Assembly (NCBI RefSeq): GCF_014280175.1
Contig: NZ_CP047931.1
Location: 60,001 to 92,000 of the forward strand
From: Synechococcus sp. A15-28
GTDB taxonomy: Bacteria > Cyanobacteriota > Cyanobacteriia > PCC-6307 > Cyanobiaceae
DNA length: 32,000 nt
Direction: 5' to 3'
Part shown: in pieces, positions 13,670-32,000 of the stretch
How the letters are laid out: every line of letters begins with the position of its first letter
How positions within the stretch are numbered: the stretch's first letter is position 1
Position numbers and translations under genes: made by a program
The notes under the pieces: generated by a model
Databases searched by the model: none
What the model saw: only the letters and a program-made list of their open reading frames with translations
Told to the model about the DNA's origin: nothing

Positions 13670-13678
13670 GGCTTTGCC

Positions 13679-14410: not shown

Positions 14411-14544
14411 TCCGCTGGTGTGGCCGATTGGCGCCATTGTGCTGGGGGTGCCGGGGCTGAACGCCTTCATGGTGTGAAGAGTGGCTCGCAACGCCCCAAA
14501 GCCATCTGTCCACATGTGAAAATCAAGCCCTGAATTCCAGTTCC

Positions 14545-14733: not shown

Positions 14734-14796
14734 GCTCTGTCTCAGATAGAACCTGACAGGTGCCACGATGGCTGAGATTCAGTCGGCACCTTCCCA

Positions 14797-15279
14797 ATGG
14801 CCACATTTGAAGGACGTTTCTCTGACGCAGCCGGATTGCGCGTCGGCATCGTCGTGGCCCGTTTCAATGATCTGGTCACCGCCAAGCTGCTGAGCGGCTG
14901 TCTCGACTGCCTCAAGCGCCACGGCGTGGATGTGTCGGAGACCAGCTCCCAGCTGGATGTGGCCTGGGTGCCGGGGTCGTTCGAACTCCCGATCGTGGCT
15001 CAGCAGATGGCTCGCTCAGGCCAGTACCAGGTACTGATCACCCTGGGCGCGGTGATCCGCGGCGACACGCCCCATTTCGATGTGGTTGTGGCGGAGGCCA
15101 GCAAGGGCGTTGCTGCGGTGGCGCGCGACACGTCCGTGCCGGTGATCTTCGGCGTGTTGACCACCGATACGATGCAGCAGGCGCTAGAGCGGGCGGGCAT
15201 CAAGAGCAACCTGGGGTGGAGCTACGGGCTGGAAGCCCTGGAGATGGGCAGCCTGATGCGGGCCTTGCCGTCGGCTTGA
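14797..15279 (+). CDS. ribH: 6,7-dimethyl-8-ribityllumazine synthase
   Basis: 160 aa with [18 protein letters not shown] and [14 protein letters not shown] motifs typical of RibH. Confidence 0.95.
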
Positions 15280-15283
15280 GGCT

Positions 15284-20615: not shown

Positions 20616-21455
20616 ATGCATCTGTTACTGGCGCTGGACCGGGGTTTTGAAGCGCTCGGCTCCGTTGCACTTACCTCTTACCTATTGCACCATCGGTTTG
20701 AGTCGGTCGTGTTGGTCACACCGCAGGACCAGCGGCTGGTGCTGCTCGAGGCGGTTGCTGCAGGATTCGGCGTTCCATTGGTGTGGCAACCGATTGGCAC
20801 TGAGGCTGCTTTGCACGGGCTCGAGCCGGCCCTGCAGCCCTACTTTTTTTGCATTGAAGCGCTGCAGCAGCATCCTGGGCGCTATCTCTACGTGGACGCT
20901 GACACCCTTTGCGTGAGCGAGCTTTCGGCCTTGGAGGATCTGCCGTTGGATGCGTCGCATCCTTTGGCAGCCTGTTCCCATGGCCGGCCCATGCCCGACC
21001 GATCTCTGGTGCTTGGCTTGGAATCCCCTTTTCACTATTTCAATGCAGGGGTCATGCTCTTCGATGCTTCCGCTTTGGCCTGCAAGATCACACCTGCTGC
21101 TGTGGTGGATTACTACTTCAAGCACCGGGCGCTATGCCGTTTCAGGGAGCAGTGCTGTTTGAATGGTGTGCTGCGCGGCCAGGTTCAATACCTGCCGGGC
21201 CAATACAACCTGCTCAGCTGGATGCGTGAGCGTCAAGCCGAGGGTCGCTGGCACGATGTCGCTGCCAATCCAATGGCCTATTGCTTGCCGGATGTTCGGG
21301 AGCGGATGGCGATCGTGCACCTTTCTGCTGGCGCTCTCCCGACGCGGGTGGAGCCGACCCGCCATGAACGCGTGGATCGCTATTGGCTCTATCTGGAACA
21401 GGAGCTGCAACAGGGTCAGGCGCTGGCTCAGCTTTTGCGTTTTGCCGACTGGTGA
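20616..21455 (+). CDS. glycosyltransferase family 8-like protein
   Basis: GT8-like blocks: YLYVDADTLC (DxD), YFNAGVMLFD, CLNGVL...YLPGQYN, IVHLSAG. Confidence 0.65.
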   Translation: MHLLLALDRGFEALGSVALTSYLLHHRFESVVLVTPQDQRLVLLEAVAAGFGVPLVWQPIGTEAALHGLEPALQPYFFCIEALQQHPGRYLYVDADTLCVSELSALEDLPLDASHPLAACSHGRPMPDRSLVLGLESPFHYFNAGVMLFDASALACKITPAAVVDYYFKHRALCRFREQCCLNGVLRGQVQYLPGQYNLLSWMRERQAEGRWHDVAANPMAYCLPDVRERMAIVHLSAGALPTRVEPTRHERVDRYWLYLEQELQQGQALAQLLRFADW

Positions 21456-22066
21456 TGGTGGGGGAAGCACCGCTGGGTGATTGAAAAGTGAGGGCTGAGG
21501 AAGCGGTTCAATTTCTTCACTGGTGTGGCTTGGATGTGGAACACCAGCAGTTGCTTGGTTGCTACGCCTTGGAAGTAGCTCAACACCTCGGAATGATGCT
21601 CGTACCAATCGCTGAGCCAGCGGCGCTTGAGTTGGCGTTTGCTGTAAGTGCCTTTGTCTTTTAAGGCGCGCCGGTAGGCCGCGGCGAATTGGCCCTTGTC
21701 ATGTTGCAGGCGGGAGCGCAGCCAATCGAAGGGATCCCGGGTGTTGAGGATAAACAGCGCGTCTGGGTAATCCCGGTGAAGTTCACGGAAGTAGCGGCAG
21801 CCCTCGATCAGCGGGGCGTGATCGCTGTTGCTGCGCCCCCAGGGGGAGCCGGGGATGCAGTTCATATCGGTGTAGGCGGTCCAGAGATCGATGCCTTTTA
21901 GCAGTGGTCGGCCTTCAGCTCGGTTGCGGTGTAGGGCAAGGGCCAGGGTGTTGGCCCGCCAGTGCACCGAAGCGATGCCGTTGGCCGTGAAGTAGTCGTG
22001 AAAGGAGGTGGTGCCGCACTTGTTGAAGCCGATCAGAAAGATGCGGGGTTGCTTGGTGGTGCTCAT
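21428..22066 (-). CDS. sulfotransferase family protein
   Basis: 5'-PSB-like FLIGFNKCGTTSF and 3'-PB-like ILNTRDPFDWLRS. The start overlaps the GT2 stop (ATGA on the minus strand at 22063-22066). The 3' end overlaps convergent GT8 by 28 nt. Confidence 0.7.
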   Translation of the reverse strand: MSTTKQPRIFLIGFNKCGTTSFHDYFTANGIASVHWRANTLALALHRNRAEGRPLLKGIDLWTAYTDMNCIPGSPWGRSNSDHAPLIEGCRYFRELHRDYPDALFILNTRDPFDWLRSRLQHDKGQFAAAYRRALKDKGTYSKRQLKRRWLSDWYEHHSEVLSYFQGVATKQLLVFHIQATPVKKLNRFLSPHFSITQRCFPHHHQSAKRKS

Positions 22067-22875
22067 GCGTCGTTCCAGCGATCGTCTTGCCAGAGGGCCC
22101 GCTGATCGGGGTTGTCCAGCAGGTTGCGGGCAAGCTCTGGTAGCGAGTGAGATCGGATTGCTTCGATGGGAAACGGTTTAACCCCATTGAGCCGTCGCAC
22201 GGTCATCACCGCTTCATGTAATTCGGCCTGGCGACGATTGGTAGTTGCTTTGGGGTGTTTGCGATAGCTCACGTGTTCCTCATCGATGGCGCGGATGGTC
22301 ACGCCTGCCCGGGCCATACGCAGGTAGAGGTCATAATCTTCGGCCAAGCTGAGGCTGGGGCGAAAGCCGTCACCTGCCGCCTCGAAGGCTTTTACCGTGA
22401 AGGCAGTGCCGGGGTTGGTGATGAAGTTGATCATCTCCAGTAAGGCTGCAGTGAAGGGTTGCAGCACTTGTTTAGGACTGCCTGATGGGTGGGTCGCACT
22501 GAACAGGCGCACCCGGGTGTAGATCAACTGGGGGTGGTCAGGATCCAGCAGCTCCCTGCAGCGTGCGGCGCGGTGGGGGTGGTTGAGATCGTCGCTGTCA
22601 AAGGTGAGTAGGCGAGGACTTCGAGCTAGTGCAACGGCTTGGTTGCGAGCTGCGCTTACGCCCCTTTCGCCATCTGGTAGGCGGTAATAGCGCAGGCGGC
22701 TGTCATCGAAGGCTGCGACCAGAGCTAATAGGTCGGCGTTGTCGCTGTGGTCGTCCACCACCACCGCTTCCCAAGCGTCACAGCTTTGGGCCAGGCAGCT
22801 GGCAAGGGCTGCTTTGAGCTCCTCAGGCCGGTTACGGGCCGGGATCAAAAAGCTGACGGCGGGTGTCCAGGGCAT
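22063..22875 (-). CDS. glycosyltransferase family 2 protein
   Basis: VSFLIPARNRPEELKAALASCLAQ...VVVDDHSDN and a DxD-like FDSDD. GT-A fold pattern. Confidence 0.8.
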   Translation of the reverse strand: MPWTPAVSFLIPARNRPEELKAALASCLAQSCDAWEAVVVDDHSDNADLLALVAAFDDSRLRYYRLPDGERGVSAARNQAVALARSPRLLTFDSDDLNHPHRAARCRELLDPDHPQLIYTRVRLFSATHPSGSPKQVLQPFTAALLEMINFITNPGTAFTVKAFEAAGDGFRPSLSLAEDYDLYLRMARAGVTIRAIDEEHVSYRKHPKATTNRRQAELHEAVMTVRRLNGVKPFPIEAIRSHSLPELARNLLDNPDQRALWQDDRWNDA

Positions 22876-22976: not shown

Positions 22977-23048
22977 GCGGATGTAGCTCAGTGGTAGAGC
23001 ATCTCCTTGCCAAGGAGAGGGTCGAGAGTTCGAATCTCTTCATCCGCT
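22977..23048 (+). tRNA. tRNA-Gly (anticodon GCC)
   Basis: Hand-folded cloverleaf:
- acceptor GCGGATG/CATCCGC
- D arm GCTC-AGTGGTA-GAGC
- anticodon arm TCTCC-TTGCCAA-GGAGA (anticodon GCC)
- T arm GAGAG-TTCGAAT-CTCTT (one G-U pair)
- discriminator T; no encoded CCA. Confidence 0.93.
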
Positions 23049-23177
23049 TATGTTAATAAAGTTATCTCTCTTGACATAGTTAGCTGTTAAGGGCGAGTTT
23101 CCTTTGAAGTATTTTAGACTATACTTAGATCAATTTATCTGGTAACTGTTCTGGCTGACCTAAGTCCAAAAAAGAAT

Positions 23178-24356
23178 TTGAATCTTGCTGATTCAAAAAC
23201 AGCACCTTCAAAATTAACTGCAAAGCAAAAAGCAGGAGATTTTGCTAACAAGTGGTTTGAACGCAACAGATCACTTGTCCTTAGGCAAACACCCTTTTGG
23301 GCTCAAAGCCTGGCAGCAATTTTAATATCCCTCGGTACTTTGAGTATTGTTGGGGGACTTATTTTTAGAATTGACGAGGTCGTCACTGTTACAGGCCAAC
23401 TTAAGTCGATCGGTGGAACTTTTGAGGCAGAGACTCCTGCGGGAGGTCGGATATCAGATGTTTTAGTTAGTAATGGTGATATAGTGGAAGCCGGAACTAT
23501 TCTCGTCAAATTCGATACGAGAAAAGCTGCTAAAGAAAAAGCAACACTAGAGAAGCTAATAAAACTGGAAAAGCTTGAATTGGATTCTCAGCTCAAAACA
23601 TTGAATAGCCAAAAGCTCACTGTTCAGAATAAACAAAATATTTTGGTAAAAAAATTAGATACCAAAACGTTAATTGCTGACGAAATGAAAACTTTGGTTG
23701 AAGTGGGTGGATATCAAAAAATTCAGTACTTGTCACAACTAGACCAGATCTTTGAGTTGAAAGGACAGATCTCTGATATGAACCAACAAATTTCTCGTAT
23801 AGAACTTCAATCCGATCAAATTACTTTGAGATCTAAGAAATCAATTGACCAAATGAACACAAGATTAAACGAAATTAAACTTCAACTTCAATACCAAATT
23901 GTTAAGGCTCCATCTTCTGGTGTGGTTTTTGATTTGAAAGCATCAGAAGGGTCTGTTATGCAACCTGGCGAGAGGATAGTTTCTATTGTGCCTCAGAAAG
24001 GATTCTATGCTGAAATATTTGTCCCTAATCAAGACATAGGCTTTATCAAGCCAGGTCAGTCTGCAAAAGTTCGTGTAGATGCCTTCCCTTTTACCAGATA
24101 CGGTGAGATTGATGGAGAAGTCGATACTATTGGAGCAGATGCCTTAGAGCCTGATAATATAAGGGAGTATTATAAATTTCCAGTTACGCTTTCATTAACG
24201 AAAAATTATCTCGAATCGAAGGATGTTCGAATCCCCTTAAAGTCTGGCATGTCAATCACCACTAATTTAAAATTGCGTGATAAGCGAGTTATTAGCCTTT
24301 TAAGTGATCTTTTAGTCGACCAGACAGATAGCGTTAAAAGCATTCGTCAACAGTAA
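23178..24356 (+). CDS. HlyD-family membrane fusion (periplasmic adaptor) protein of a type I secretion-like exporter
   Basis: Single N-terminal TM segment (SLAAILISLGTLSIVGGLIF), a lipoyl-like hairpin (VTVTGQLKS...GDIVEAGTILVKFD), a long coiled-coil middle, and a C-terminal beta-barrel ending GMSITTNLKLRDKRVISLL. It starts at a TTG with no upstream in-frame ATG. Confidence 0.85.
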   Translation: MNLADSKTAPSKLTAKQKAGDFANKWFERNRSLVLRQTPFWAQSLAAILISLGTLSIVGGLIFRIDEVVTVTGQLKSIGGTFEAETPAGGRISDVLVSNGDIVEAGTILVKFDTRKAAKEKATLEKLIKLEKLELDSQLKTLNSQKLTVQNKQNILVKKLDTKTLIADEMKTLVEVGGYQKIQYLSQLDQIFELKGQISDMNQQISRIELQSDQITLRSKKSIDQMNTRLNEIKLQLQYQIVKAPSSGVVFDLKASEGSVMQPGERIVSIVPQKGFYAEIFVPNQDIGFIKPGQSAKVRVDAFPFTRYGEIDGEVDTIGADALEPDNIREYYKFPVTLSLTKNYLESKDVRIPLKSGMSITTNLKLRDKRVISLLSDLLVDQTDSVKSIRQQ

Positions 24357-25081
24357 TGAACTCTGATTTAATTGATCCCTTGCCGCATGAGTGGATTACT
24401 TCTTCTCGATCTCAATACTTAACTACTTTTATTAATCCACTTGGTGCAATTTTAAAAGATTCAGGTGCTCTTGAGTCAGTTTTGTCTTACTGGATCGTTG
24501 ATGAAATTATATTTGAATATAATGTCAAACATAGTAATTTTAAGTTCTTGACTGATAAAAAGTCTGATCCTTTTGATCAATCGCAAAGCAATGAAGATCA
24601 AAAATATTCAAGGTTAGACACTATACTTCTTTGGTCTAAAGATAAGTGGTATCATCGTGTTGAAACATTATACCTTGAAAATAAAGATAAGTTAGATTTG
24701 ATTAGCTTTAAAATGATTAGAGTGAAGAGCAAAGAATTTGCCTACGAGATTTACCATCGTTTAAAAGCAGATGAAGCTAGCTTTGAGGAATTGTCTTTAC
24801 GCTATGGACAAGGCCCTGAAAAAAGAATCGGGGGCAAATGCAAAATCCAAACATCTGAGTCGATACCAAAAATCTTAGTAGAATCTGTCAAGAAATCATC
24901 TCAGGGTGATATTCTTAAGCCTATCCCCTATGGTAAGCAATTTGCAGTCATCGAATTTGATCAATGGCAGTCAGCCCAACTGGATGAAAAGACGGAATCA
25001 ATTCTGTTGCAAAGCGAATTTGAGAGCTGGTCAAAATCTATTATAAATTACATTTTAAATCATATCTTAATTTTAAATTGA
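24356..25081 (+). CDS. small protein with C-terminal parvulin (PpiC-type rotamase)-like domain, probably degenerate
   Basis: Residues ~115-205 (ISFKMIRVKSKEFAYEIYHRLKADEASFEELSLRYGQGPEKRIGGKCK...GDILKPIPYGKQFAVIEF) follow the parvulin pattern (HILV..A..i...l..G.dF..lA..yS......GG.lG.......G.is.P......G.hii). The first conserved His position is not His. Start and stop overlap both neighbours. Confidence 0.55.
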   Translation: MNSDLIDPLPHEWITSSRSQYLTTFINPLGAILKDSGALESVLSYWIVDEIIFEYNVKHSNFKFLTDKKSDPFDQSQSNEDQKYSRLDTILLWSKDKWYHRVETLYLENKDKLDLISFKMIRVKSKEFAYEIYHRLKADEASFEELSLRYGQGPEKRIGGKCKIQTSESIPKILVESVKKSSQGDILKPIPYGKQFAVIEFDQWQSAQLDEKTESILLQSEFESWSKSIINYILNHILILN

Positions 25082-28041
25082 CTATCATGATTGAAGGAAT
25101 TATTAAGAAACTTTCTTCTCAGCATCCTTATGACAAGCTTGAATCTACGCAAAGAGATTTCTTATTTGCAAATTCTGAACTAGTCAGATATAGACCTGGA
25201 GAGCTTATATTGAGACCTGACGAATTACCTAGTCAATTAGTACTAGTTCTTGATGGAGCCGTAAGGTTACTCTCAAACTCGCCAACTGATGATCAAGATG
25301 TAGTTACTTTAGATATCCGCGGTTCTGGTCAGCTCATAGGTTGGTCTTCATTGTTGCGTGCAGGATCTTGTGAATGGGTTATAGCTTCTCAAGAAACTAC
25401 TGTTGTCAGGTTCGGGGCGTCAAATTTTGTTAGTACGATAATTTCCTCTCAGGTGTTTAGAGAATTCTTTGGTGAGCTTTCCAATATCCATGAATCAATT
25501 TATGTTTTACGACAAATATTTAAATCAAAGTATAAGCTTGCCGAGGGTGCTTTTAAAAACTACTCGGAAATTGTACAAAATGTTCGTGTTATCAGCCTGA
25601 TGCCAGGTTGTAAGTTTAGCTATAAAGACAGTGATTATGAATGGTTTTTAAGTACAGAAAATGTTCCTTCGTTACCCGTTGGTAGTAAAATTGATAACGG
25701 CGACGAGCTAAACGTTAAAGAAGGTTTTAATCTGCCATACAGATTGGTTGGCTTTAGCCTGAAAGTCGATAAGGGTATTGGAAATAATTTAGCTTCGCCG
25801 CATAATGCTGTTATAAATAACTTCGATCTTGAAAGTAAGCCTGGATCTTCTCTCTCTAAATTAGGGATAATTGAAAATGAATCGTTAGAGCTGGAAGATA
25901 AGTTTCCAGCCATCAAAGGCTTCGGTCCTTTGAAAGAAGCCTTGGCTGCGGTGGAAATGGTTGCACTAATGGAGAAAACACCTTTCAAAAGAGATATACT
26001 TGAAAAAATATTAGAAGAACAATTTCGCAGAAATAAGCCATTGTCTTTAGAACTTCTTGCTCGCCTTTGTGAACTTCTTGGATTAACGTGTCAAATAGGT
26101 GGAGTCAATACGAAATATATTGACAGTATTGAACTTCCCTCCCTTATGATGTATGAGGATGTTCCAATTGTTGTTTACTCATTTGTTGGTAAAAAAGCCT
26201 TAATTGGCCATCCGCATAACGGGATTACTAAGGTCGATATAGATGATTTCATAAATAAACTACCTGAGAAATGTCGCTTTGCCACCCCTAAAAGAATTGG
26301 AAGTACGCCCAGAAGTAAGTTTGGATGGAATTGGTTTACACCTCTACTCAGTAAATATAAAAAAGCTTTAACACTGGTTTTTGTTTCTTCATTGCTCGCT
26401 CAGTTGTTTGGCCTTGGTGTTCCGCTTCTAATACAACAAATTATTGATAAAGTCCTTAGTCAGGGAAATTTAAGTAGTCTCAATGTACTTGGCGGGACAA
26501 TGATAGTGCTCGCACTTTTCCAGGGTATCCTTACAGCATTGCGTACATACATATTCGTTGATACAACCGATCGGATGGATTTGACACTTGGAAGCGCAGT
26601 AATTGATCGCTTATTAGCACTCCCTCTTGGATTTTTTGAAAAAAGACCTGTAGGTGAATTAAGCCAAAGAATAGGAGAACTCAACACAATTCGCGGATTC
26701 TTGACCGGCACTGCGTTAGTAAGCGTGTTAAATATAATATTTGCTTCGTTATACTTGGTGGTCATGATAATATACTCGCCTCTTCTGACTGCAGTTAGTT
26801 TAAGCACTTTGCCTGTCTACTTTCTAATTGTTTTTGTTGTAGCCCCTATATATAAGGGTCTTATCCGAAAAAGAGCTATTGCACAAGCAAAAACTCAAAG
26901 TCATCTTATTGAGGTGCTAGGTGGTATTCAAACTGTCAAAGCGCAACACTTTGAGTTAACTGCTAGATGGAAATGGCAAGATCGCTACAGACAATTTGTC
27001 AATGAAGGCTTTAAGAGTGTTGCTCTGGGAACAACCTCAGGAGTAATAGGTTCCTTTTTGAATCAATTAAGCAGTCTATTAGTCCTATGGGTTGGAATGT
27101 GGCTTGTTCTTGAAGGAGAACTCACACTAGGTATGTTGATTGCTTTTAGAATTATAAGCGGAAATGTTACTAATCCTTTGTTGCAACTTTCTGGCCTTTA
27201 TCAAGGTTTTCAAACTGTGCAATTGGCTATGGAGCGACTTTCGGATATTTTGGATCAAAATCCTGAACTTTCTAATGAAGATGATTTAAATCAGATATCG
27301 TTGCCCCCAATTGTTGGTTCTATTAGATATGAAGATGTCTGTTTTAGGTTTGGCAAAAATGGTCCTTATCAGGTAGACAAAGTTTCTTTGTCTATTGCAG
27401 CTGGAGACTTCATCGGAATTGTGGGTCAGAGTGGTAGCGGAAAAAGTACACTTGTTAAATTACTTCCGAGGCTCTATTCTCTTAATCAAGGTAGATTGTT
27501 TATAGATGATTACGATATTGAAAAAGTCAATCTTTCGAGTTTGAGGAGGCAAATAGGAATTGTCCCCCAAGATTCACTTTTGTTTGAGGGTACTGTAGCT
27601 GATAATATAGCCTTGAATGACCCTCAAGCTACTAATGATTCAATAATTGCAGCCGCAAAAATTGCTTGTGCTCATGATTTTATTATGAGTTTAGGACAAG
27701 GTTATGCTACTCCTCTCTCTGAGAGAGGTAGTAACCTTAGTGGTGGGCAACGTCAAAGAATTGCGATAGCAAGAACTATTCTTTCAAATCCTAGACTACT
27801 TATTATGGATGAAGCTACAAGTGCACTTGATTACAATACTGAGAAACAGTTGTGTGCTAATCTTCAAAGTTGGGCTCAAGATCGTACAGTACTTTTTATT
27901 ACACATCGCCTAAGCACTATTCGTAATAGTGACCTTATTCTTGTTATGCATGAGGGAAGACTTGTTGAACAAGGCAGTCATCAGCAACTAATGGATCTTG
28001 GAGAGAGATATTGCGCATTATTTAAGCAACAAGGAAATTAA
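25078..28041 (+). CDS. ABC exporter (fused TMD-NBD) with N-terminal cNMP-binding-like domain and catalytically inactive C39-like domain
   Basis: - Residues ~25-125: CAP/cNMP-type beta-barrel pattern.
- Residues ~276-400: C39-peptidase-like fold pattern without the catalytic Cys or His.
- Six-TM ABC_membrane region.
- NBD with Walker A GQSGSGKST, signature LSGGQRQRIAIAR and Walker B LLIMDEATSALD.
- Start is either TTG at 25078 (overlapping the upstream stop) or ATG at 25087. Confidence 0.88.
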   Translation: MTIMIEGIIKKLSSQHPYDKLESTQRDFLFANSELVRYRPGELILRPDELPSQLVLVLDGAVRLLSNSPTDDQDVVTLDIRGSGQLIGWSSLLRAGSCEWVIASQETTVVRFGASNFVSTIISSQVFREFFGELSNIHESIYVLRQIFKSKYKLAEGAFKNYSEIVQNVRVISLMPGCKFSYKDSDYEWFLSTENVPSLPVGSKIDNGDELNVKEGFNLPYRLVGFSLKVDKGIGNNLASPHNAVINNFDLESKPGSSLSKLGIIENESLELEDKFPAIKGFGPLKEALAAVEMVALMEKTPFKRDILEKILEEQFRRNKPLSLELLARLCELLGLTCQIGGVNTKYIDSIELPSLMMYEDVPIVVYSFVGKKALIGHPHNGITKVDIDDFINKLPEKCRFATPKRIGSTPRSKFGWNWFTPLLSKYKKALTLVFVSSLLAQLFGLGVPLLIQQIIDKVLSQGNLSSLNVLGGTMIVLALFQGILTALRTYIFVDTTDRMDLTLGSAVIDRLLALPLGFFEKRPVGELSQRIGELNTIRGFLTGTALVSVLNIIFASLYLVVMIIYSPLLTAVSLSTLPVYFLIVFVVAPIYKGLIRKRAIAQAKTQSHLIEVLGGIQTVKAQHFELTARWKWQDRYRQFVNEGFKSVALGTTSGVIGSFLNQLSSLLVLWVGMWLVLEGELTLGMLIAFRIISGNVTNPLLQLSGLYQGFQTVQLAMERLSDILDQNPELSNEDDLNQISLPPIVGSIRYEDVCFRFGKNGPYQVDKVSLSIAAGDFIGIVGQSGSGKSTLVKLLPRLYSLNQGRLFIDDYDIEKVNLSSLRRQIGIVPQDSLLFEGTVADNIALNDPQATNDSIIAAAKIACAHDFIMSLGQGYATPLSERGSNLSGGQRQRIAIARTILSNPRLLIMDEATSALDYNTEKQLCANLQSWAQDRTVLFITHRLSTIRNSDLILVMHEGRLVEQGSHQQLMDLGERYCALFKQQGN

Positions 28042-28258
28042 TTGACAGAAATATCCTAAGGGTTTAAAAGCTGCTATGAATAATAATGGCGTAAATCATT
28101 AATCGTTAAGGGAATTATATATAAACATGTCATTAACTTAAGGCTGATATTGATCAAGCCTGGTTGATGTTGATTGTGAAAGGTGTCTTCGAGCTGCACG
28201 TCCCACAATTCCTCGACAAGGGGATATTGAGTGATGATGAAGAGTGAAGAACAAGCAA

Positions 28259-28290
28259 TAAAACCCCCTCTCTTTCTAAGAGAGAGGGGG
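28259..28290 (-). terminator. rho-independent terminator (distal, unit 1 copy)
   Basis: Perfect 10-bp stem CCCCCTCTCT (28264-28273) / AGAGAGGGGG (28281-28290) with a 7-nt loop. On the minus strand it is followed by TTTTATT. Confidence 0.8.
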
Positions 28291-28430
28291 CGAAATCAAT
28301 CAATGATTGATCAGTCTGATATTGATCAAGCCTGGTTGATGCTGATTGTGAAAGGTGTCTTCGAGCTGCACGTCCCACAATTCCTCGACAAGGGGATATT
28401 GAGTGATGATGAAGAGTGAAGAACAAGCAA

Positions 28431-28460
28431 TAAAAACCCCTCTCTGAGAAAGAGAGGAGG
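28431..28460 (-). terminator. rho-independent terminator (unit 2 copy)
   Basis: 9-bp stem CCCCTCTCT (28437-28445) pairing with AGAGAGG-A-GG (28451-28460, one bulged A) and a 5-nt loop. On the minus strand it is followed by TTTTTA. Confidence 0.7.
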
Positions 28461-28603
28461 GGGCGGAATCAATCAATGATTGATCAGTCTGATATTGATC
28501 AAGCCTGGTTGATGCTGATTGTGAAAGGTGTCTTCGAGCTGCACGTCCCACAATTCCTCGACAAGGGGATATTTAGTGATGATGAAGAGTGAAGAACAAG
28601 CAA

Positions 28604-28636
28604 TAAAAAAACCCCCTCTCTTAGAAAGAGAGGGGG
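28604..28636 (-). terminator. rho-independent terminator (proximal, unit 3) downstream of the Ca-binding-repeat protein gene
   Basis: Perfect 10-bp GC-rich stem CCCCCTCTCT (28612-28621) / AGAGAGGGGG (28627-28636) with a 5-nt loop. On the minus strand it is followed by TTTTTTTATT. Confidence 0.85.
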
Positions 28637-28673
28637 AGTTGTATCAATCAATGATTGATCAGGCTGATATTGA

Positions 28674-30089
28674 TCAAGCCTGGTTAATCTCGATTGTGAA
28701 GGAAGAACCTGCTCCCGCGTTAGTACTCAGACCAGTGATGGTTCCACCAATAGTGTTGGAGAACTTGGTAACGATGTCGTCGTTAGTACCACCCTGAACG
28801 AAGAGGTACACAGAGCTAGCATCGCTGCCAGTGAAGACGGCGTACTGTCCTTCGGTTGACAGCAATGCATCAACCTTAGAGATGCGATCAGAAACTGCGC
28901 TTACGCTGCTGAATGTAGCAACACCCGAGGCGATAGTTGCAGAGTTGAGGCTTGGAACACCAGCGGTTTCGGCAGAGCCAAGACCAACCATTGCGATGTT
29001 GAAGGTAACACCACCGGTTGCTCCAGTAACGTCAGTGTTGGAGAACGTGACGATGTCCATGCCATCGGCCGTTGAATCGCTGAAGTCAGCGAAGCCAATG
29101 GTTTGACCCATTGTAAAGCCGGTATCAGCCAGGTCAGAACTGAAGGTGATGCTGTCAGCACCAAGACCACCAATAACAGTACCGAAGGCACCACCAGTGG
29201 TTGCATCAATGTTGAGAGAATCAGCTCCACCACCGAGGTTGACCCGGGTGCCGGTGAATGCACCAGCAACAACGACAGAACCGGTCATGACAATTGTGTC
29301 TTGACCAGCACCACCGCCGATGGTGACGTTGGTGTCAGCGGAGAATTGGTCGTCGATAACGATGCTGTCGTTACCGGCATTGCCTTGGATCAAGGAAGAA
29401 GCAACAAGCTGACTTCCGTTCTCAATGGTGATGATGTCATTACCACCCAGGCCCTTGATGACAGCAGAACCAGCTGTGATTTTCAGACTGAGTGTGTCGT
29501 TGCCGTCGACAGTGTTATTGGTGTCATCCAACAGGATCTGCAGACTGTTCGCGTTGGCAACGCCAGAAATGGTAACGCTGTCGTTGCCGCCGCCGCCAAC
29601 GATCAGGGCAGACACCAAGTGAGCGTCGTTGTCAAACGTCATGGTGTCGTTACCGGCACCAAGAGCGATCTTTGAGGCAGAACCGGAAATGACAGCGCTA
29701 GCAATAATGCTGTCAGCTCCAGCACCACCAGCGAGAGTTCCTGCAATGACACCAGCTGAAAATGTGACGGTGTCGCTGCCGTCGCCTAATTTTGTAACAC
29801 CATCAAAGTGGGAATTGTGGCTGACGATTTTGTCGCCACCAGCACCTGCAATGATTGTAGCGTCATCGAAGTCAGCTGCACTAGCGGTGAAAACGTCGGC
29901 GCCACCAGCCAGATCAACGTAAAACGAGCTGGCGGAAGCTACAGGTCCGTCAACTACTTGAAGAGTGTCATTGCCGGCGAAGCCGTAAATTGTAGACGCG
30001 CTAACAGCTCCTGTATTTACCAGGAACAGCTCCGCGTCATCGGTCCCCGTAGCCACCTGGCCCGCGGAGTTGATCAGATAGTTAGCCAT
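28674..30089 (-). CDS. secreted/surface Ca-binding-repeat (RTX-like, GGxGxD motif) protein, 471 aa; putative T1SS substrate, SwmA/S-layer-like
   Basis: 13 motifs of the G-x-(G/A)-x-D-(T/S)-(I/L/V) type: GFAGNDTL, AGGADVF, GAGGDKI, GDGSDTV, GAGADSI, GAGNDTM, GGGNDSV, VDGNDTL, LGGNDII, NAGNDSI, GAGQDTI, GGGADSL, GLGADSI. The protein has no Cys or Trp and very few Lys or Arg, and is rich in G/A/S/T/D/V. There is no N-terminal signal-peptide-like segment, consistent with C-terminal-signal secretion. Confidence 0.8.
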   Translation of the reverse strand: MANYLINSAGQVATGTDDAELFLVNTGAVSASTIYGFAGNDTLQVVDGPVASASSFYVDLAGGADVFTASAADFDDATIIAGAGGDKIVSHNSHFDGVTKLGDGSDTVTFSAGVIAGTLAGGAGADSIIASAVISGSASKIALGAGNDTMTFDNDAHLVSALIVGGGGNDSVTISGVANANSLQILLDDTNNTVDGNDTLSLKITAGSAVIKGLGGNDIITIENGSQLVASSLIQGNAGNDSIVIDDQFSADTNVTIGGGAGQDTIVMTGSVVVAGAFTGTRVNLGGGADSLNIDATTGGAFGTVIGGLGADSITFSSDLADTGFTMGQTIGFADFSDSTADGMDIVTFSNTDVTGATGGVTFNIAMVGLGSAETAGVPSLNSATIASGVATFSSVSAVSDRISKVDALLSTEGQYAVFTGSDASSVYLFVQGGTNDDIVTKFSNTIGGTITGLSTNAGAGSSFTIEINQA

Positions 30090-30130
30090 GAGAAGAGGAG
30101 AGGGTGATCAATTTTTGAGACACCGCAGTG

Positions 30131-30159
30131 AATCTATGCGGGTGGCCTACACATGTCAA
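30131..30159 (-). promoter_or_regulatory. candidate sigma70-type promoter for the Ca-binding-repeat protein gene
   Basis: On the minus strand: TTGACA (30159-30154), a 17-nt spacer, then TAGATT (30136-31). This predicts a leader of ~35 nt to the ATG at 30089. The -10 hexamer contains the TAG stop of the upstream glycosyltransferase ORF. Confidence 0.45.
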
Positions 30160-31423
30160 CGGATATATGGCCAGATGCAGATGAGACACACCCTGGTTTG
30201 CTGGAAGGAGGGCAAAAAGGCTCGGATATAGTACAATTATACTTGTTATAAATGTTATTTACAAGTTTTTTCCATCTTTTCAGGCATGATTTAATTGAAT
30301 AGGTATCATTAGAGGGGCGTATTCGCTCACTATCTTTGTAACTTTCTTCTTTTATTAATTTGACGACAGAACTAGCTAATTCACCTGGTTTTCGGTGGTC
30401 GATTCTAACCACATTTTCAAAACTTCTTGTAAATTCTGTCACTGGCTTAACATCACTTACGATCATCGGATTATTAATATATAAACTTTCAACTAAACTC
30501 CAGCTCGCTACAAATGGATGCGTTAGGTAAATATGACACCATGAAGATCGCAACCAATTTCTATATGCATCTCCTTGCAAAAAACCAACCCAATTTACAT
30601 TGTTGCTAATATTATGTTTTTCTAGATACATTTCAGCCCAGTTTTTCCAGGTACCTTCTACCGGTTTCATACCTCCGTAGCTGCATCTATCATTACCTGC
30701 AATTTCAATAGTGACTGAAGGCACCTTTTTTACAATCTCGGGGATTTCCCTTATAAATTGCGGAAAACATCTCATCGGTTCCATGCCTCTTGTACCGTAA
30801 GTGATCTTTGGCGTTTCTGATATAAATTTTTGGTCGTTTTGAAAATAATCTGTGTCAACCCCGTCAAAAATGACTTGGCATTTTTCTGCAAAAATCTTCG
30901 GAAGTTGCTCCATCTGCCACAAGGTAGGAGCCACTATATTGTCTGCATGAGAAAGTTCTAGAGCTATATTTTTGTTTCTCAGCCAATATTTACGGACAGC
31001 ATCTTCGCCTATCCTTAATTCCTTATTGGTGTTATCATACCAAAAAAAATCTGACTCCTGATTAAACCACCATTCTAAATAACTTATTTGTTTGCATTTC
31101 GGCCATATTTCTTTGATGTGTAATCCGCAACCCCAAGCAGAATGAGAAATTACGATATCAGGGTAATAATTTTTTTCTTTTAATTTTACAAATGCGGTGC
31201 GATACATTTCACCCATCTTGTCTGCACGTTCAGTAAGTCCAAGACTTTGATTTTCCAAGGTCTCGTGGCTCAGGCTGCCTTTCAAACATATGCGATCGAC
31301 TCCCTTGAGTCTTCTTCCAAAGTGCGTCTGGCATAGAAATTTAATTTCATTCTTTTCTGCGAAGTATTTTGCGACATGTTTGAACTGACCTGGAAAATTT
31401 GGGTGAAGGAAAAGAATTTTCAT
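30134..31423 (-). CDS. GT-B fold glycosyltransferase (group 1 / GT4-like)
   Basis: N-terminus MKILFLHPNFPGQFKHVAKYF and C-terminal block HIYLTHPFVASWSLVESLYINNPMIVSDVKPVTEF match a widespread GT4-like family (E-x7-E-type region). The ATG at 31423 is preferred over the GTG at 31432. The last ~30 codons lie in a GC-richer segment. Confidence 0.75.
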   Translation of the reverse strand: MKILFLHPNFPGQFKHVAKYFAEKNEIKFLCQTHFGRRLKGVDRICLKGSLSHETLENQSLGLTERADKMGEMYRTAFVKLKEKNYYPDIVISHSAWGCGLHIKEIWPKCKQISYLEWWFNQESDFFWYDNTNKELRIGEDAVRKYWLRNKNIALELSHADNIVAPTLWQMEQLPKIFAEKCQVIFDGVDTDYFQNDQKFISETPKITYGTRGMEPMRCFPQFIREIPEIVKKVPSVTIEIAGNDRCSYGGMKPVEGTWKNWAEMYLEKHNISNNVNWVGFLQGDAYRNWLRSSWCHIYLTHPFVASWSLVESLYINNPMIVSDVKPVTEFTRSFENVVRIDHRKPGELASSVVKLIKEESYKDSERIRPSNDTYSIKSCLKRWKKLVNNIYNKYNCTISEPFCPPSSKPGCVSSASGHISVDMCRPPA

Positions 31424-31468
31424 TGACAACACTTTGTACTACAATGGTGTGATTGTTGATTGGTTCTA

Positions 31469-32000
31469 ATGGGACTCAAGTTAGCCCTCAAAGCACACAG
31501 CGAGGGAAATCTTAAGCTTGCAGAGATTCATTACAAGCGTGCTCTCGAACAAGGTGACAAATCGCATATTTTATATCAAAATTTTGGCGCTTTGTTGAGG
31601 AGTCAAGACAAATTAAAGGATGCTCTTCAATGCTATCGCACTGGCCTTCATCATTTTCCTGATAATGTTGACATATTGCTAAATTACGCAAATGCCTTAC
31701 GTGCAGACTTTCCTGCTTCCGCTCTTGAAAACTACTTAAGAATCCTTGGAATAATACTTTCAACTCCTAATTTTAATGAGAAAAAGTATTTAAATGCTCT
31801 TTGTAATATTTGTCAACTTACTCATGATTTAGGTCTTTACAAACTAAATGTTCTGTATCTACGGGCGGCCCTTCCTCCCGTTAAATATAATGCGGGAATA
31901 CTACTAAACATATTACTCCTTCTTGATAAGAATAACAGTTCACAGGATACAAGCTTTTGCTTTGAACAAATATATCAAAGGATACAATCTTCTCTGCTTT
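31469..32000 (+). CDS. TPR repeat protein, 5' part (continues beyond window)
   Basis: Not in the supplied track because no stop lies inside the window. My own translation from the ATG at 31469 is open to the edge. It shows TPR-like 34-aa units: MGLKLALKAHSEGNLKLAEIHYKRALEQGDKSHILYQNFGALLRSQDKLKDALQCYRTGLHHFPDNVDILLNYANALRAD.... It is divergent from the glycosyltransferase. Confidence 0.6.
   Translation, partial: MGLKLALKAHSEGNLKLAEIHYKRALEQGDKSHILYQNFGALLRSQDKLKDALQCYRTGLHHFPDNVDILLNYANALRADFPASALENYLRILGIILSTPNFNEKKYLNALCNICQLTHDLGLYKLNVLYLRAALPPVKYNAGILLNILLLLDKNNSSQDTSFCFEQIYQRIQSSLL

What the first reader, a model, noticed from the sequence alone, without database searches (positions are those of the whole stretch)
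23178..32000. Island-borne export plus surface-protein cassette: HlyD / parvulin-like / cNMP-C39like-ABC facing GT4 -> Ca-binding-repeat protein, with a TPR neighbour
**Seen in sequence**
- Three plus-strand genes are translationally coupled (TAATG junction at 24354-24358; TTGA then ATG at 25078-25089). They encode a membrane-fusion protein, a small parvulin-like protein and a 987-aa ABC exporter.
- Convergent to them, a GT-B glycosyltransferase is followed 44 nt later by a 471-aa acidic, Cys-free protein with 13 GGxGxD-type motifs.
- A TPR protein diverges from the glycosyltransferase.

**Established knowledge**
- Type I secretion systems (ABC + MFP + outer-membrane factor) export Ca-binding repeat proteins through uncleaved C-terminal signals.
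- Exporters of such substrates (HlyB type) carry catalytically dead C39-like domains.
- As I recall the SwmA literature, swimming marine Synechococcus need a glycosylated Ca-binding-repeat S-layer protein, ABC/HlyD-type transporter genes and glycosyltransferases for non-flagellar motility.

**Inference**
- The locus is a self-contained, horizontally mobile cassette for regulated secretion and glycosylation of an abundant surface protein.
- I do not recognise this combination as a characterised system: a sensor-like domain on the exporter, an in-operon parvulin-like gene, a short 471-aa substrate and a triplicated terminator array.
- No outer-membrane factor is present in the window.
Basis: partly seen in the sequence, partly recalled or inferred. 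Interest (0 to 1): 0.8.

Follow-up and report, generated by a model that had tools for sequence, protein, structure and literature searches.

The report
Conserved secretion locus for a SwmA-like surface protein
This low-GC stretch of the Synechococcus A15-28 genome is a fast-evolving version of a locus shared by many marine picocyanobacteria, pairing a HlyB/HlyD-type exporter with a calcium-type beta-helix protein related to the swimming protein SwmA; its parts are known kinds, so it is useful but not exotic.

Summary
The genes, junctions, GC drop, border tRNA-Gly and triple terminator are all real. The window is from Synechococcus sp. A15-28.

The reading [quoted passage not shown] is well supported:
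- The ABC protein is closest to E. coli HlyB.
- The 471-aa protein models confidently as a beta-helix matching Ca-dependent, type I-secreted proteins.
- Its repeat region aligns with SwmA (99% probability).
- The two halves co-occur in 8 of 8 loci, searched from either side.
- The BL107 ortholog was found by mass spectrometry in that strain's exoproteome.

- The HlyD + rotamase-like + cNMP/C39-like ABC trio is not unrecognised. It is the "group I" cluster of Wang et al. 2011, found in nearly all cyanobacteria.
- It is not a self-contained mobile cassette. It is a hypervariable allele at a fixed uvrB-side locus. The three loci that reach the far side end at secA.
- It is not a motility system. 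A15-28 lacks swmA and swmB.

The protein is not a classical RTX protein: there is no HemolysinCabind hit and the repeat period is about 22.6 residues. The C39-like domain lacks its catalytic residues. No double-glycine peptides are encoded, which argues against the "bacteriocin" label. Glycosylation of the protein and cNMP control remain untested.

The parts
22977..23048 (+). tRNA-Gly (GCC) at the left border of the low-GC DNA
   Evidence: ARAGORN and Rfam tRNA at 74 bits. GC drops from 0.59 to 0.37 immediately after it.
23178..24356 (+). HlyD-family membrane-fusion protein (392 aa) with one N-terminal transmembrane segment
   Evidence: PF13437 at 83.5 bits. TIGR01843 type_I_hlyD scores 160.5 bits, below its curated cutoff of 208.65. 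The Kyte-Doolittle 19-residue maximum is 2.32 at residue 45. Orthologs are 53-68% identical.
24356..25081 (+). Small cytoplasmic parvulin-like protein (241 aa), the 'SurA' of group I clusters and probably a pseudo-PPIase or chaperone
   Evidence: PF00639 Rotamase at 25.3 bits (cutoff 21.7). Three orthologs score 21.0-23.8 bits. No hydrophobic segment (KD19 maximum 0.86). Start codon overlaps the HlyD stop (TAATG). Orthologs are only 30-42% identical.
25078..28041 (+). HlyB-family ABC exporter (987 aa from TTG, 984 aa from ATG at 25087). N-terminal extension: cNMP-binding domain (about aa 15-150), second small beta domain (aa 170-230), disordered linker (aa 233-265), degenerate C39-like domain (about aa 272-410). 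Then the transmembrane domain (aa 432-699) and the nucleotide-binding domain (aa 767-915).
   Evidence: Pfam. TIGR01846 at 648.9 bits over aa 289-986, cutoff 725.55. PDB HlyB 7sgr at E = 3e-139, and E = 2.4e-177 with the ortholog profile, reaching HlyB residue 56. AF2 model of aa 1-435 has pLDDT 86.8. Foldseek best hits are tandem cNMP-binding proteins. Catalytic positions: Ala288, Pro363 (59/59), His378.
28144..28700 (-). 173-nt tandem repeat of 3.2 copies. Each unit holds the last ~27 nt of the 471-aa coding sequence (FTIxINQA*), a 37-nt spacer, an intrinsic terminator and about 78 nt more. This gives three consecutive terminators.
   Evidence: TRF score 959 with 94% matches. Repeat families D1 and D2. 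Hairpins at 28636-28612, 28459-28437 and 28288-28264. Sequence read.
28674..30089 (-). 471-aa acidic, Cys-free, Pro-poor secreted beta-helix protein: N-terminal cap, 13 G-x-D turns, and a family-specific C-terminal domain (aa ~330-471). It is the putative exporter substrate.
   Evidence: No Pfam or NCBIfam hit. AF2 pLDDT 89.6 and pTM 0.89. Foldseek: 3p4g Ca-dependent beta-helix E = 4.6e-6, CyaA RTX domain, serralysins. SwmA hhalign 99%. 185 homologs, mostly about 470 aa. BL107 ortholog found in the exoproteome.
30131..30159 (-). Promoter-like site (TTGACA, 17 nt, TAGATT) overlapping the GT4 stop codon, just upstream of the 471-aa gene
   Evidence: Consensus scan, 10 of 12 matches; sequence. 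This is a consensus match only, and the total number of promoter-like sites is not above the shuffled expectation.
30134..31432 (-). GT4-family (GT-B) glycosyltransferase with a PF12000 N-terminal domain. The likely start is the ATG at 31423.
   Evidence: PF12000 at 114 bits and PF00534 at 37.4 bits. An ortholog lies directly upstream of the ~470-aa gene in every locus. Orthologs are 43-50% identical.
31469..32000 (+). 5' part of a divergently transcribed gene with N-terminal TPR repeats. Orthologs are 461-588 aa. It runs off the window.
   Evidence: TPR_14 at 27.1 bits, above the 23.5 cutoff. tblastn to all five loci compared gives 37-53% identity. Start sequence read.

Best explanation
This is the A15-28 allele of a conserved picocyanobacterial surface-protein secretion locus.

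**Proposed mechanism**
- The three plus-strand genes form the inner-membrane part of a type I secretion system: a HlyB-family ABC exporter, a HlyD adaptor and a small cytoplasmic parvulin-like accessory protein. The outer-membrane TolC-like duct is encoded elsewhere in the genome.
- The convergent 471-aa gene encodes the cargo. It is an acidic, cysteine-free, nearly proline-free protein. It would be threaded out unfolded, C-terminus first, and then fold outside the cell into a 13-turn, presumably Ca2+-stabilised beta-helix related to the N-terminal half of SwmA.
- The exporter's catalytically dead C39-like domain would dock the unfolded repeat region, as in HlyB.
- The cNMP-type domain in front of it could gate export.
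- The GT4 and TPR genes, plus the sulfatase and GT genes seen beyond the window in other genomes, either glycosylate the protein or build the surface glycan it binds to.
- The locus is a hypervariable surface-antigen site, probably driven by phage or grazer pressure and renewed by allelic replacement.

**Shown**: gene content, domain identities, the beta-helix fold, similarity to SwmA, conserved co-occurrence, high divergence, and export of the BL107 ortholog.

**Inferred**: that this exporter exports this protein, Ca2+ binding, the docking role of the C39-like domain, cNMP gating, glycosylation, and the selective agent.
For: **Exporter**
- HlyB is the best solved homolog (E = 3e-139; E = 2.4e-177 with the profile).
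- TIGR01846 aligns over aa 289-986.
- HlyD domains are present.
- The three genes overlap at their junctions.

**Cargo**
- The AF2 model is confident (pLDDT 89.6).
- Its best structural matches are proteins known to use type I secretion: the MpAFP Ca-dependent beta-helix (3p4g), the CyaA RTX domain, serralysin-type proteases and RsaA.
- There are 13 invariant Asp turns.
- Similarity to SwmA: 99.0% probability, E = 6.6e-18, and BLASTP E = 8e-16.
- It has no strongly hydrophobic N-terminal segment of the kind a Sec signal peptide would give (highest 19-residue Kyte-Doolittle mean 1.41, at residue 128), and only 2 Pro.

**Linkage**
- The ~470-aa gene and the cNMP-ABC gene are neighbours in 8 of 8 loci with both sides visible. 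These are A15-28, L001, AG-679-B05, MAG L011, Cyanobium Aljojuca 7D2, BL107, P. marinus MIT 1320 and KORDI-49.
- Family membership of the neighbours is confirmed at E = 1e-62 to 1e-103.

**Export**
- BL107 ZP_01468985.1 is identical to the protein encoded at L013:13758-15113 over the stored part of the sequence (about 400 of 451 residues). It made up 1.66% of the BL107 exoproteome, in which only 11 proteins were validated and 96.8% were predicted to be exported.

**Dead C39-like domain**
- Pro363 is invariant where HlyB has His83.
- By motif register, Ala sits at the catalytic Cys position.

**Hypervariability**
- UvrB is 95-97% identical between genomes. The cassette genes are far lower: substrate 33-70%, parvulin-like 30-42%, GT4 43-50%, ABC N-terminal region about 43%, ABC transport core about 79%.

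**Precedent**
- Sll1180 and Sll1181 with TolC Slr1270 export the RTX S-layer protein Sll1951 in Synechocystis (Agarwal et al. 2018, cited).
Against: - No experiment links this exporter to this protein. Presence in an exoproteome does not identify the export route.
- TIGR01846 and TIGR01843 both score below NCBI's curated cutoffs.
- The protein does not match HemolysinCabind and lacks nonapeptide repeats, so Ca2+ binding rests on fold analogy alone.
- No TolC-like gene is visible in the window or in any of the 10-kb flanks retrieved.
- The cNMP domain has Gln where cAMP/cGMP binders have Glu (58 of 59 orthologs), so the ligand is uncertain.
- The divergence of the substrate does not correlate with the divergence of the exporter's N-terminal region across 7 loci (Spearman 0.12, p = 0.59), so there is no positive co-evolution signal.
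- The assignment of the catalytic Cys position comes from motif register, not from a structural superposition.
Confidence: 0.65

Rival explanations
1. Bacteriocin-type export, as in the published annotation. The trio is a "group I bacteriocin gene cluster" whose C39 peptidase domain cleaves double-glycine leader peptides and exports small peptides. On this reading the 471-aa gene is an unrelated neighbour.
For: Wang et al. 2011 classify HlyD + SurA + long-type C39-ABC as bacteriocin machinery. NCBI names the A15-28 protein "peptidase domain-containing ABC transporter". TIGR03796 and TIGR01193 bacteriocin-exporter models hit at 431 and 372 bits.
Against: - Both bacteriocin models score far below their cutoffs and below the HlyB model.
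- Peptidase_C39 is sub-threshold at 17.3 bits.
- The catalytic His position is an invariant Pro, and the Cys position is Ala.
- No small ORF in 23000-32000 carries a double-glycine leader, under either the published consensus or a relaxed one.
- Wang et al. themselves found only 0.35 precursors per group I cluster. For RS9917 they listed the photosystem subunit PsbZ as a precursor.
Confidence: 0.07
2. Linked neighbours, but not an exporter-cargo pair. The exporter serves other cargo, such as several RTX-like proteins encoded elsewhere or a non-protein surface component. The beta-helix protein reaches the surface by another route, and the genes co-localise only because all are cell-envelope genes in one variable island.
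For: - Genomes carry other HemolysinCabind proteins; for example, a 388-aa one lies 8 kb away in MIT 1320.
- WH8102 has three group I clusters.
- There is no co-evolution signal.
- The island is full of envelope genes.
Against: - The tight adjacency is conserved across Synechococcus, Cyanobium and Prochlorococcus, despite 33-40% identity of the cargo and gene shuffling around it.
- The protein has no strongly hydrophobic N-terminal segment of the kind a Sec signal peptide would give, yet its ortholog is extracellular.
- Its fold class is typical of type I cargo.
Confidence: 0.17
3. Swimming-motility cassette. The 471-aa protein is the SwmA equivalent of this strain, and the locus is needed for non-flagellar swimming.
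For: The repeat region is homologous to SwmA. A15-28 belongs to clade III, the motile clade. SwmA is an RTX-type S-layer glycoprotein.
Against: - A15-28 and A15-24 are the only clade III strains that lack swmA and swmB.
- The cassette occurs in BL107, KORDI-49, Cyanobium and Prochlorococcus MIT 1320. None of these belongs to clade III, the only clade in which this motility is observed.
- SwmA is about 835 aa by my recollection. The held text shows only its first ~399 residues and peptides out to residue 643.
- The family's C-terminal domain finds no protein longer than 495 aa among 1.84 billion representatives.
Confidence: 0.03
4. Recent foreign acquisition. The whole cassette is a newly integrated mobile island at tRNA-Gly in A15-28, not an ancestral locus.
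For: - GC is 0.37 against 0.60, with a sharp boundary at the tRNA.
- The closest exporter in the protein collection searched (5.8 billion clusters) is only 66% identical.
Against: - The same gene order occurs at the same chromosomal place in other genomes, with 95-97% identical UvrB.
- GC is native in KORDI-49 and Cyanobium.
- No integrase or transposase domain appears among the genes scanned in the visible part.
- The best reading is replacement of an allele at an old locus, which does involve lateral transfer of the allele.
Confidence: 0.08

Closest known systems
"Group I" cyanobacterial gene cluster of Wang, Fewer & Sivonen 2011 (PLoS One 6:e22384; PMC3140520)
   Same: It has the same three genes: HlyD, a rotamase-domain "SurA", and the long-type ABC transporter with an extra N-terminal CAP_ED (cNMP) domain before a C39-type domain. 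It was reported in marine Synechococcus and Prochlorococcus. The RS9917 example lies next to psbZ, as in the BL107 and KORDI-49 loci.
   Different: That paper interprets it as bacteriocin machinery with an active C39 peptidase and double-glycine precursors. Here the catalytic residues are missing, no such precursor is encoded, and the conserved neighbour is a ~470-aa beta-helix protein.
E. coli haemolysin type I secretion system (HlyB/HlyD/TolC with HlyA)
   Same: It is the best solved homolog of the exporter, aligned from the C39-like domain to the C-terminus. Both have a HlyD adaptor, an inactive C39-like domain, and an acidic Gly/Asp-repeat cargo with no strongly hydrophobic N-terminal segment of the kind a Sec signal peptide would give.
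   Different: This exporter carries about 270 extra N-terminal residues (a cNMP domain and a second beta domain). There is an extra parvulin-like gene and no acyltransferase. The cargo has ~22-residue turns instead of nonapeptides and lacks a toxin domain. HlyB keeps His83, whereas this family has Pro at that position.
SwmA, the S-layer glycoprotein required for swimming in Synechococcus WH8102
   Same: It shares the same type of G-x-D beta-helix turns, co-linear over 282 columns (99% probability). It is exported and abundant in the exoproteome. It is described as an RTX-like glycoprotein solubilised by EDTA. Its island also holds a glycosyltransferase.
   Different: SwmA is about 835 aa by my recollection, and only its first ~399 residues were available for comparison. 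It is specific to clade III and lies in a different island, Syn_GI087. A15-28 lacks it. The 471-aa family has its own C-terminal domain and occurs in lineages outside clade III.
Synechocystis 6803 S-layer system: Sll1951 exported by Sll1180/Sll1181/Slr1270 (Agarwal et al. 2018)
   Same: It is a cyanobacterial HlyB/HlyD-type system shown experimentally to export an RTX surface-layer protein. I recall Sll1180 as a long, roughly 1000-aa transporter of the same type, but I could not check this here.
   Different: Sll1951 is a much larger classical RTX protein and is not encoded next to its exporter. Whether Sll1180 belongs to group I could not be confirmed from the held supplement.
Marinomonas primoryensis ice-binding adhesin region IV (PDB 3P4G), and the Caulobacter RsaA S-layer locus
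   Same: 3P4G is the best structural match: a Ca2+-dependent beta-helix with one Ca2+-binding turn per coil, longer than a nonapeptide. RsaA gives a weak fold match only (E = 0.017, probability 0.20). From my own knowledge, RsaA is also a type I-secreted, Ca2+-dependent surface protein encoded beside its ABC/MFP genes and O-antigen genes, which makes it the closest analog in locus logic.
   Different: Sequence identity is only 13-17%. The C-terminal domains and biological roles differ. The RsaA match is weak.

Membership tests
Type I secretion system (HlyB/HlyD/TolC type) | ABC exporter of the HlyB family (transmembrane domain plus nucleotide-binding domain) | tested here: met
   PDB HlyB at E = 3e-139 and 2.4e-177. 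TIGR01846 is the best NCBIfam model at 648.9 bits, but this is below its curated cutoff of 725.55.
Type I secretion system (HlyB/HlyD/TolC type) | HlyD-family membrane-fusion protein encoded alongside the exporter | tested here: met
   PF13437 at 83.5 bits. TIGR01843 is the best model at 160.5 bits, below its cutoff of 208.65. It is adjacent in 7 of 8 loci.
Type I secretion system (HlyB/HlyD/TolC type) | TolC-like outer-membrane factor | not testable with these tools
   None is in the window or in the flanks of related loci. The rest of the genome could not be read. Such factors are often unlinked.
Type I secretion system (HlyB/HlyD/TolC type) | Cargo exported through an uncleaved C-terminal signal, dependent on the ABC and MFP proteins | not testable with these tools
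   Only indirect evidence exists. The BL107 ortholog is extracellular, the window protein has no strongly hydrophobic N-terminal segment, and the C-terminal domain is conserved.
Classical RTX / HemolysinCabind (PF00353) | Tandem nonapeptides GGxGxDxUx detected by the Pfam model | tested here: not met
   No hit even at E <= 10. There are 4 strict motifs and the turn period is about 22.6 residues. A minority of family members do carry PF00353.
Classical RTX / HemolysinCabind (PF00353) | Ca2+-binding parallel beta-roll or beta-helix fold | tested here: met
   AF2 pLDDT 89.6. Foldseek hits 3p4g, 7rah and serralysins. Ca2+ binding itself was not tested.
Group I cluster (Wang et al. 2011) | HlyD + rotamase-domain protein + ABC transporter with CAP_ED and C39-type domains | tested here: met
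   against the definition given.
Group I cluster (Wang et al. 2011) | Nearby double-glycine precursor peptide | tested here: not met
   0 of 246 small-ORF starts in 23000-32000 match the published or a relaxed leader consensus.
Peptidase C39 (active bacteriocin-processing domain) | Pfam PF03412 score above the gathering cutoff | tested here: not met
   17.3 bits against a cutoff of 22. The 8-sequence profile against the PDB gives only E = 1.1.
Peptidase C39 (active bacteriocin-processing domain) | Catalytic Cys and His | tested here: not met
   The His position is Pro363 in 59 of 59 orthologs, from the HlyB alignment. The Cys position is Ala288 by motif register. No structural superposition was done.
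Parvulin PPIase (PF00639) | Rotamase domain above the Pfam cutoff | tested here: met
   25.3 bits against 21.7. Three orthologs score 21.0-23.8 bits.
Parvulin PPIase (PF00639) | Catalytic His pair, meaning an active isomerase | tested here: inconclusive
   No His is invariant in the 8-ortholog alignment. By my manual alignment to Par10 both His residues are replaced. This was not checked against a structure.
Cyclic-nucleotide-binding domain (PF00027) | Domain and fold | tested here: met
   33.3 bits against 27.5. Foldseek hits PKG and PKA-R cNMP-binding domains at E about 2e-9.
Cyclic-nucleotide-binding domain (PF00027) | Phosphate-binding cassette Gly-Glu ... Arg | tested here: inconclusive
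   Gly84 is present in 59 of 59 and Arg94 in 58 of 59 orthologs, but Gln85 replaces Glu in 58 of 59. The ligand is unknown.
SwmA | Orthology: full-length similarity, the same island, and a role in swimming | tested here: not met
   Only the repeat region aligns. The C-terminal domain finds no protein longer than 495 aa. A15-28 lacks swmA and swmB.
tRNA-integrated mobile genomic island | Compositional shift at a tRNA gene | tested here: met
tRNA-integrated mobile genomic island | Integrase and flanking direct repeats | tested here: inconclusive
   No integrase or transposase domain appears among the genes scanned in 23000-32000 or in the Pfam listings of the related loci. The far border lies outside the window.

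The most novel reading that the evidence does not exclude
The "group I bacteriocin" clusters of marine picocyanobacteria are not bacteriocin machinery. They are dedicated exporters for a family of short SwmA-like, Ca2+-folded beta-helix proteins that form the main variable protein coat of picocyanobacteria outside the swimming clade, including some Prochlorococcus. On this reading the pseudo-parvulin acts as a cytoplasmic holdase, and the tandem cNMP-type domains act as a small-molecule gate on secretion. The locus would then be a major target of phage and grazer selection in the ocean.
Probability: 0.25. Interest if true: 0.6.

Novelty: new member of a known kind. Interest (0 to 1): 0.4.

Why it matters
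Marine Synechococcus and Prochlorococcus are among the most abundant phototrophs on Earth. Their surface molecules decide who can infect or eat them.

This analysis connects three separate pieces of knowledge:
- an in-silico "bacteriocin" cluster type (Wang et al. 2011);
- an unannotated, exoproteome-detected "VCBS/hypothetical" protein (Christie-Oleza et al. 2015);
- the SwmA swimming protein.

Together they form one testable picture: a conserved but hypervariable locus that secretes a SwmA-like beta-helix protein.

It also suggests that the "peptidase domain-containing ABC transporter" annotation, and the bacteriocin label for group I clusters in these organisms, are probably misleading.

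The practical value is a clear knock-out experiment in tractable strains. It is not a new kind of system.

Tried and rejected
- **Exact look-up of the 471-aa protein in assemblies:** not on record.
- **Genome-collection scan with a 19-sequence alignment:** With 7 sequences the single peptide pattern was too narrow and returned one cyanobacterial locus plus unrelated proteobacterial RTX proteins. Synteny was built from encoding-contig look-ups instead.
- **Word-indexed search with the exporter's N-terminal 421 aa:** returned mostly fragments.
- **McCarren & Brahamsha motility papers, and the SYNW0193-0195 tags:** not held and not searchable. I could not test whether the WH8102 transporter needed for SwmA is a paralog of this cassette.
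- **8-sequence profile of the C39-like block against the PDB:** nothing significant. Only the full-length 59-sequence profile extended into the HlyB C39-like domain.
- **Foldseek of the exporter's N-terminal model:** swamped by cNMP-domain hits, so the third domain's fold was not scored.
- **AlphaFold-database fold search:** library unavailable.
- **Rfam scan:** no family in the tandem repeat.
- **Co-evolution test:** pairwise identities across 7 loci are saturated near 35-45% and show no correlation, so the test is uninformative.
- **Other family members in the exoproteome supplement:** motif searches found none in the stored, truncated text.
- **Small peptide in the tandem repeat:** I considered a 21-aa ORF ending in FTISINQA. 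I rejected it because it has only a TTG start, no ribosome-binding context, and is not conserved in other loci.

Full report
**Source and observation**

The window is from Synechococcus sp. A15-28. Both the 471-aa protein and the ABC protein match NCBI entries of that strain at 100% identity.

- HlyD lies at 23178-24356, a 241-aa parvulin-like gene at 24356-25081, and a 987-aa ABC gene at 25078-28041.
- The junctions overlap as described: TAATG at 24354-24358, and TTGA at 25078-25081 with an ATG at 25087.
- On the other strand, a GT4 gene (30134-31432) is followed 44 nt later by the 471-aa gene (28674-30089).
- A TPR-containing ORF starts divergently at 31469 and runs off the window.
- GC drops from about 0.60 to 0.37 at about 23000, immediately after tRNA-Gly(GCC) at 22977-23048.
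- The three strongest terminator-like sites of the region are consecutive minus-strand hairpins downstream of the 471-aa gene. They lie within a 173-nt tandem repeat.
- No outer-membrane factor is encoded in the window. The ORFs scanned upstream of uvrB are clpX, clpP, tig, asd, dapA, RNase J, lysC, holA, tilS, a DUF561 gene, a sulfotransferase, ribH, mutS, a GNAT gene and one ORF without a hit. GT8, sulfotransferase and GT2 genes follow uvrB.

**The exporter**

- Pfam finds cNMP_binding, ABC_membrane and ABC_tran domains.
- The best NCBIfam model is the HlyB-type type I secretion exporter. It aligns from residue 289 to the end, but at 649 bits it is below the curated cutoff of 726.
- The best solved homolog is E. 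coli HlyB.
- An AlphaFold model of residues 1-435, built with 59 orthologs, is confident (pLDDT 86.8). It shows a cNMP-binding fold, a second small beta domain, a disordered linker (233-265) and an alpha/beta domain (272-410).
- Foldseek matches the first ~250 residues to proteins with tandem cNMP-binding domains.
- The phosphate-binding cassette keeps Gly84 and Arg94 but has Gln85 instead of the usual Glu in 58 of 59 orthologs. A nucleotide ligand is therefore possible but unproven.

The third domain is only weakly C39-like by sequence:
- PF03412 scores 17.3 bits, below its cutoff, and a small profile finds nothing in the PDB.
- The full-length ortholog profile does align continuously into the C-terminal half of the HlyB C39-like domain (HlyB residues 56-134).
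- In that alignment HlyB His83, which corresponds to the catalytic His of C39 peptidases, faces Pro363, and Pro363 is invariant.
- By motif register (E-A-L-A-V-C-E-M against D-C-G-x-A-C-L), the catalytic Cys position is Ala288. The conserved His378 sits at the Asp position.

I conclude, as an inference, that this is a catalytically dead C39-like domain.

**The small middle gene**

- It passes the Rotamase cutoff narrowly (25.3 bits), and its orthologs behave the same way.
- It has no signal peptide or transmembrane segment.
- No histidine is invariant among 8 orthologs.
- The presumed cargo has only 2 prolines.

A chaperone-like role for a pseudo-isomerase is more plausible than proline isomerisation. 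This is an inference.

**The 471-aa protein**

- It has no Pfam or NCBIfam match, and HemolysinCabind is not detected even at E <= 10.
- Only 4 strict GGxGxD motifs exist. However, homolog alignments show 13 invariant Asp residues in G-x-D turns spaced about 22.6 residues apart, an N-terminal cap, and a non-repeat C-terminal domain.
- The AlphaFold model is confident (pLDDT 89.6, pTM 0.89) and almost all beta-strand.
- Its best solved matches are the Ca2+-dependent beta-helix of the Marinomonas adhesin/antifreeze protein (3P4G, E = 4.6e-6), the CyaA RTX domain and serralysin-type proteases, with a weak match to the RsaA S-layer protein. From established knowledge, all of these are type I secretion substrates.
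- The first 399 residues of SwmA were recovered from a published supplement. They align co-linearly with the family profile (hhalign 99.0%, E = 6.6e-18, 282 columns), and BLASTP gives 29% identity at E = 8e-16.
- Repeats inflate such scores. Even so, the alignment runs through to the end-of-repeat junction, so I accept a shared repeat class.
- The C-terminal domain is family-specific. An exhaustive search of 1.84 billion representatives found 17 proteins, none longer than 495 aa.

**Linkage of the two halves**

Starting from homologs of the 471-aa protein, three metagenome, single-cell or MAG contigs and Cyanobium sp. Aljojuca 7D2 all show the same core order: TPR genes, then GT4, then the ~470-aa gene, facing the cNMP-ABC and parvulin-like genes, with HlyD beyond them wherever that side is visible. 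The three contigs that extend furthest on the TPR side reach secA (L001, L003, L011). The two that extend furthest on the other side reach uvrB (L003, L011), with mutS beyond it in L003. A fourth, truncated contig (L002) shows secA through GT4 and the ~470-aa gene only.

Starting instead from exporter orthologs in BL107, KORDI-49 and Prochlorococcus marinus MIT 1320, the neighbour is again a 423-500-aa protein. A family profile recognises these at E = 1e-62 to 1e-103. The PF12000 GT4 and two TPR genes are also present.

That makes 8 of 8 loci in which both sides are visible.

**Evidence of export**

The BL107 neighbour is identical to ZP_01468985.1 ("VCBS", 451 aa) over the stored part of that sequence (about 400 of 451 residues). 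Christie-Oleza et al. 2015 detected it in the BL107 exoproteome at 1.66%. In that strain only 11 proteins were validated, and 96.8% of them were predicted to be exported. For comparison, SwmA scored 1.7% in the same shotgun survey although it forms a major gel band.

**Evolution of the locus**

- UvrB is 95-97% identical between A15-28 and two other genomes.
- Cassette proteins are much more diverged: HlyD 53-68%, ABC 61-78%, parvulin-like 30-42%, GT4 43-50%, cargo 33-70%.
- Across seven loci, the exporter's transport core averages 79% identity. Its N-terminal region averages 43%, the cargo 38% and the parvulin-like protein 36%.
- The cassette is low-GC (0.36-0.41) in A15-28, BL107, AG-679-B05, MIT 1320 and two metagenome contigs. 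It has native high GC in KORDI-49 and Cyanobium.
- No integrase or transposase domain appears among the genes scanned in the window or in the Pfam listings of the related loci.

The simplest reading is an old locus whose alleles are exchanged and diversify, much like O-antigen loci. It is not a novel mobile insertion.

**What was already known**

- Wang, Fewer and Sivonen (2011) defined "group I" clusters as HlyD + rotamase-domain SurA + a long-type ABC transporter with an extra CAP_ED domain. They found 57 of them, in all but one of 58 cyanobacterial genomes, including Prochlorococcus and marine Synechococcus.
- They proposed double-glycine bacteriocin precursors as substrates, but found only 0.35 per group I cluster.
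- For RS9917 they listed PsbZ as a precursor. psbZ sits beside HlyD in the BL107 and KORDI-49 loci. Their marine group I cluster is therefore this locus, and that "precursor" is not credible.
- No double-glycine leader ORF exists in the island part of the window.
- A cyanobacterial HlyB/HlyD pair exporting an RTX S-layer protein has been shown in Synechocystis (Agarwal et al. 2018, cited).
- Doré et al. 2020 report that A15-28 and A15-24 are the only clade III strains that lack swmA and swmB. This removes the motility interpretation for this strain.

**Verdict**

The most likely mechanism is a dedicated type I-like export of a SwmA-related, presumably Ca2+-folded beta-helix protein to the cell surface or the medium, with neighbouring glycan genes. 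I put my confidence at about 0.65.

The exporter-cargo relation, Ca2+ binding, glycosylation and cNMP gating are all inferred. The components are known kinds and the trio is already described, so I rate this a new member of a known kind, with moderate interest. Its main value is to correct the "bacteriocin/peptidase" label and to give an uncharacterised, exoproteome-detected protein family a testable role.

Noticed in passing
window 28144-28700; L003 about 11389-11587: The tandem array downstream of the 471-aa gene repeats the gene's last ~27 nt (FTIxINQA*) together with its terminator. The ~78-nt remainder reads in frame as a decayed copy of the gene's C-terminus (NCGTCSSKTPFTISINQA against NAGAGSSFTIEINQA). 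Synechococcus AG-679-B05 has an independent repeat of unrelated sequence (89-nt period, 2.2 copies) in the same position, also starting about 27 nt before the stop codon and also carrying a terminator per unit. L001, L011 and L012 have none. This recurrent duplication of "gene end + terminator" is unexplained. It could give strong termination towards the convergent exporter gene, or it could be scars of allele exchange.
   Followed up: partly
PMC3140520 supplementary file 5; L013 7051-7239; L015 5946-6134: Wang et al. 2011 list PsbZ (ycf9, 62 aa) as a putative bacteriocin precursor of the RS9917 group I cluster. psbZ and ribH simply lie beside HlyD in BL107 and KORDI-49. In A15-28, ribH lies elsewhere (14797-15279), so the flank has been rearranged.
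   Followed up: partly
window 20616-22875; L011 17578-19837; L013 4717-6979: A GT8, sulfotransferase and GT2 trio with native GC sits near uvrB, on the side towards the cassette. It directly follows uvrB in A15-28 and the marine MAG. In BL107, mutS and an acetyltransferase lie between uvrB and the trio, and psbZ and ribH lie between the trio and HlyD. Identity to the MAG copies is 76-82%, so this trio is much better conserved than the cassette. It is absent from AG-679-B05 and KORDI-49.
   Followed up: partly
window 25078-26382 (ABC residues 170-230): The exporter's N-terminal extension appears to hold two beta-barrel units. Foldseek aligns about 250 columns to tandem cNMP-binding proteins such as PKG and PKA-R. 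Pfam detects only the first unit. The second unit carries the conserved motif W-x-LS...VPG-x-PVG...LPYRLIG.
   Followed up: partly
L014 (P. marinus MIT 1320) 8530-9267, 12986-15720 and 21418-22584; L015 8499-9164: The cassette is remodelled in some genomes. A methyltransferase gene is inserted between HlyD and the parvulin-like gene in KORDI-49, and one lies upstream of the parvulin-like gene in MIT 1320. MIT 1320 also has two extra genes (363 and 548 aa, no Pfam hit) after the ABC gene, HlyD on the opposite strand, and a separate 388-aa HemolysinCabind protein next to dTDP-sugar genes.
   Followed up: no
window 31423-31469: The GT4 gene and the divergent TPR gene are only about 36-45 nt apart. 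Their promoters must therefore overlap each other or lie within coding sequence.
   Followed up: no
one search hit list: Apart from the A15-28 entry itself, the closest full-length exporter in the protein collection searched (5.8 billion clusters) is only 66% identical. One fragmented metagenome copy (L001) reaches 78% over part of the gene. The cargo has relatives at 90%, 73% and 70% identity, found only in metagenomes. This particular allele therefore seems rare in sequenced isolates.
   Followed up: no
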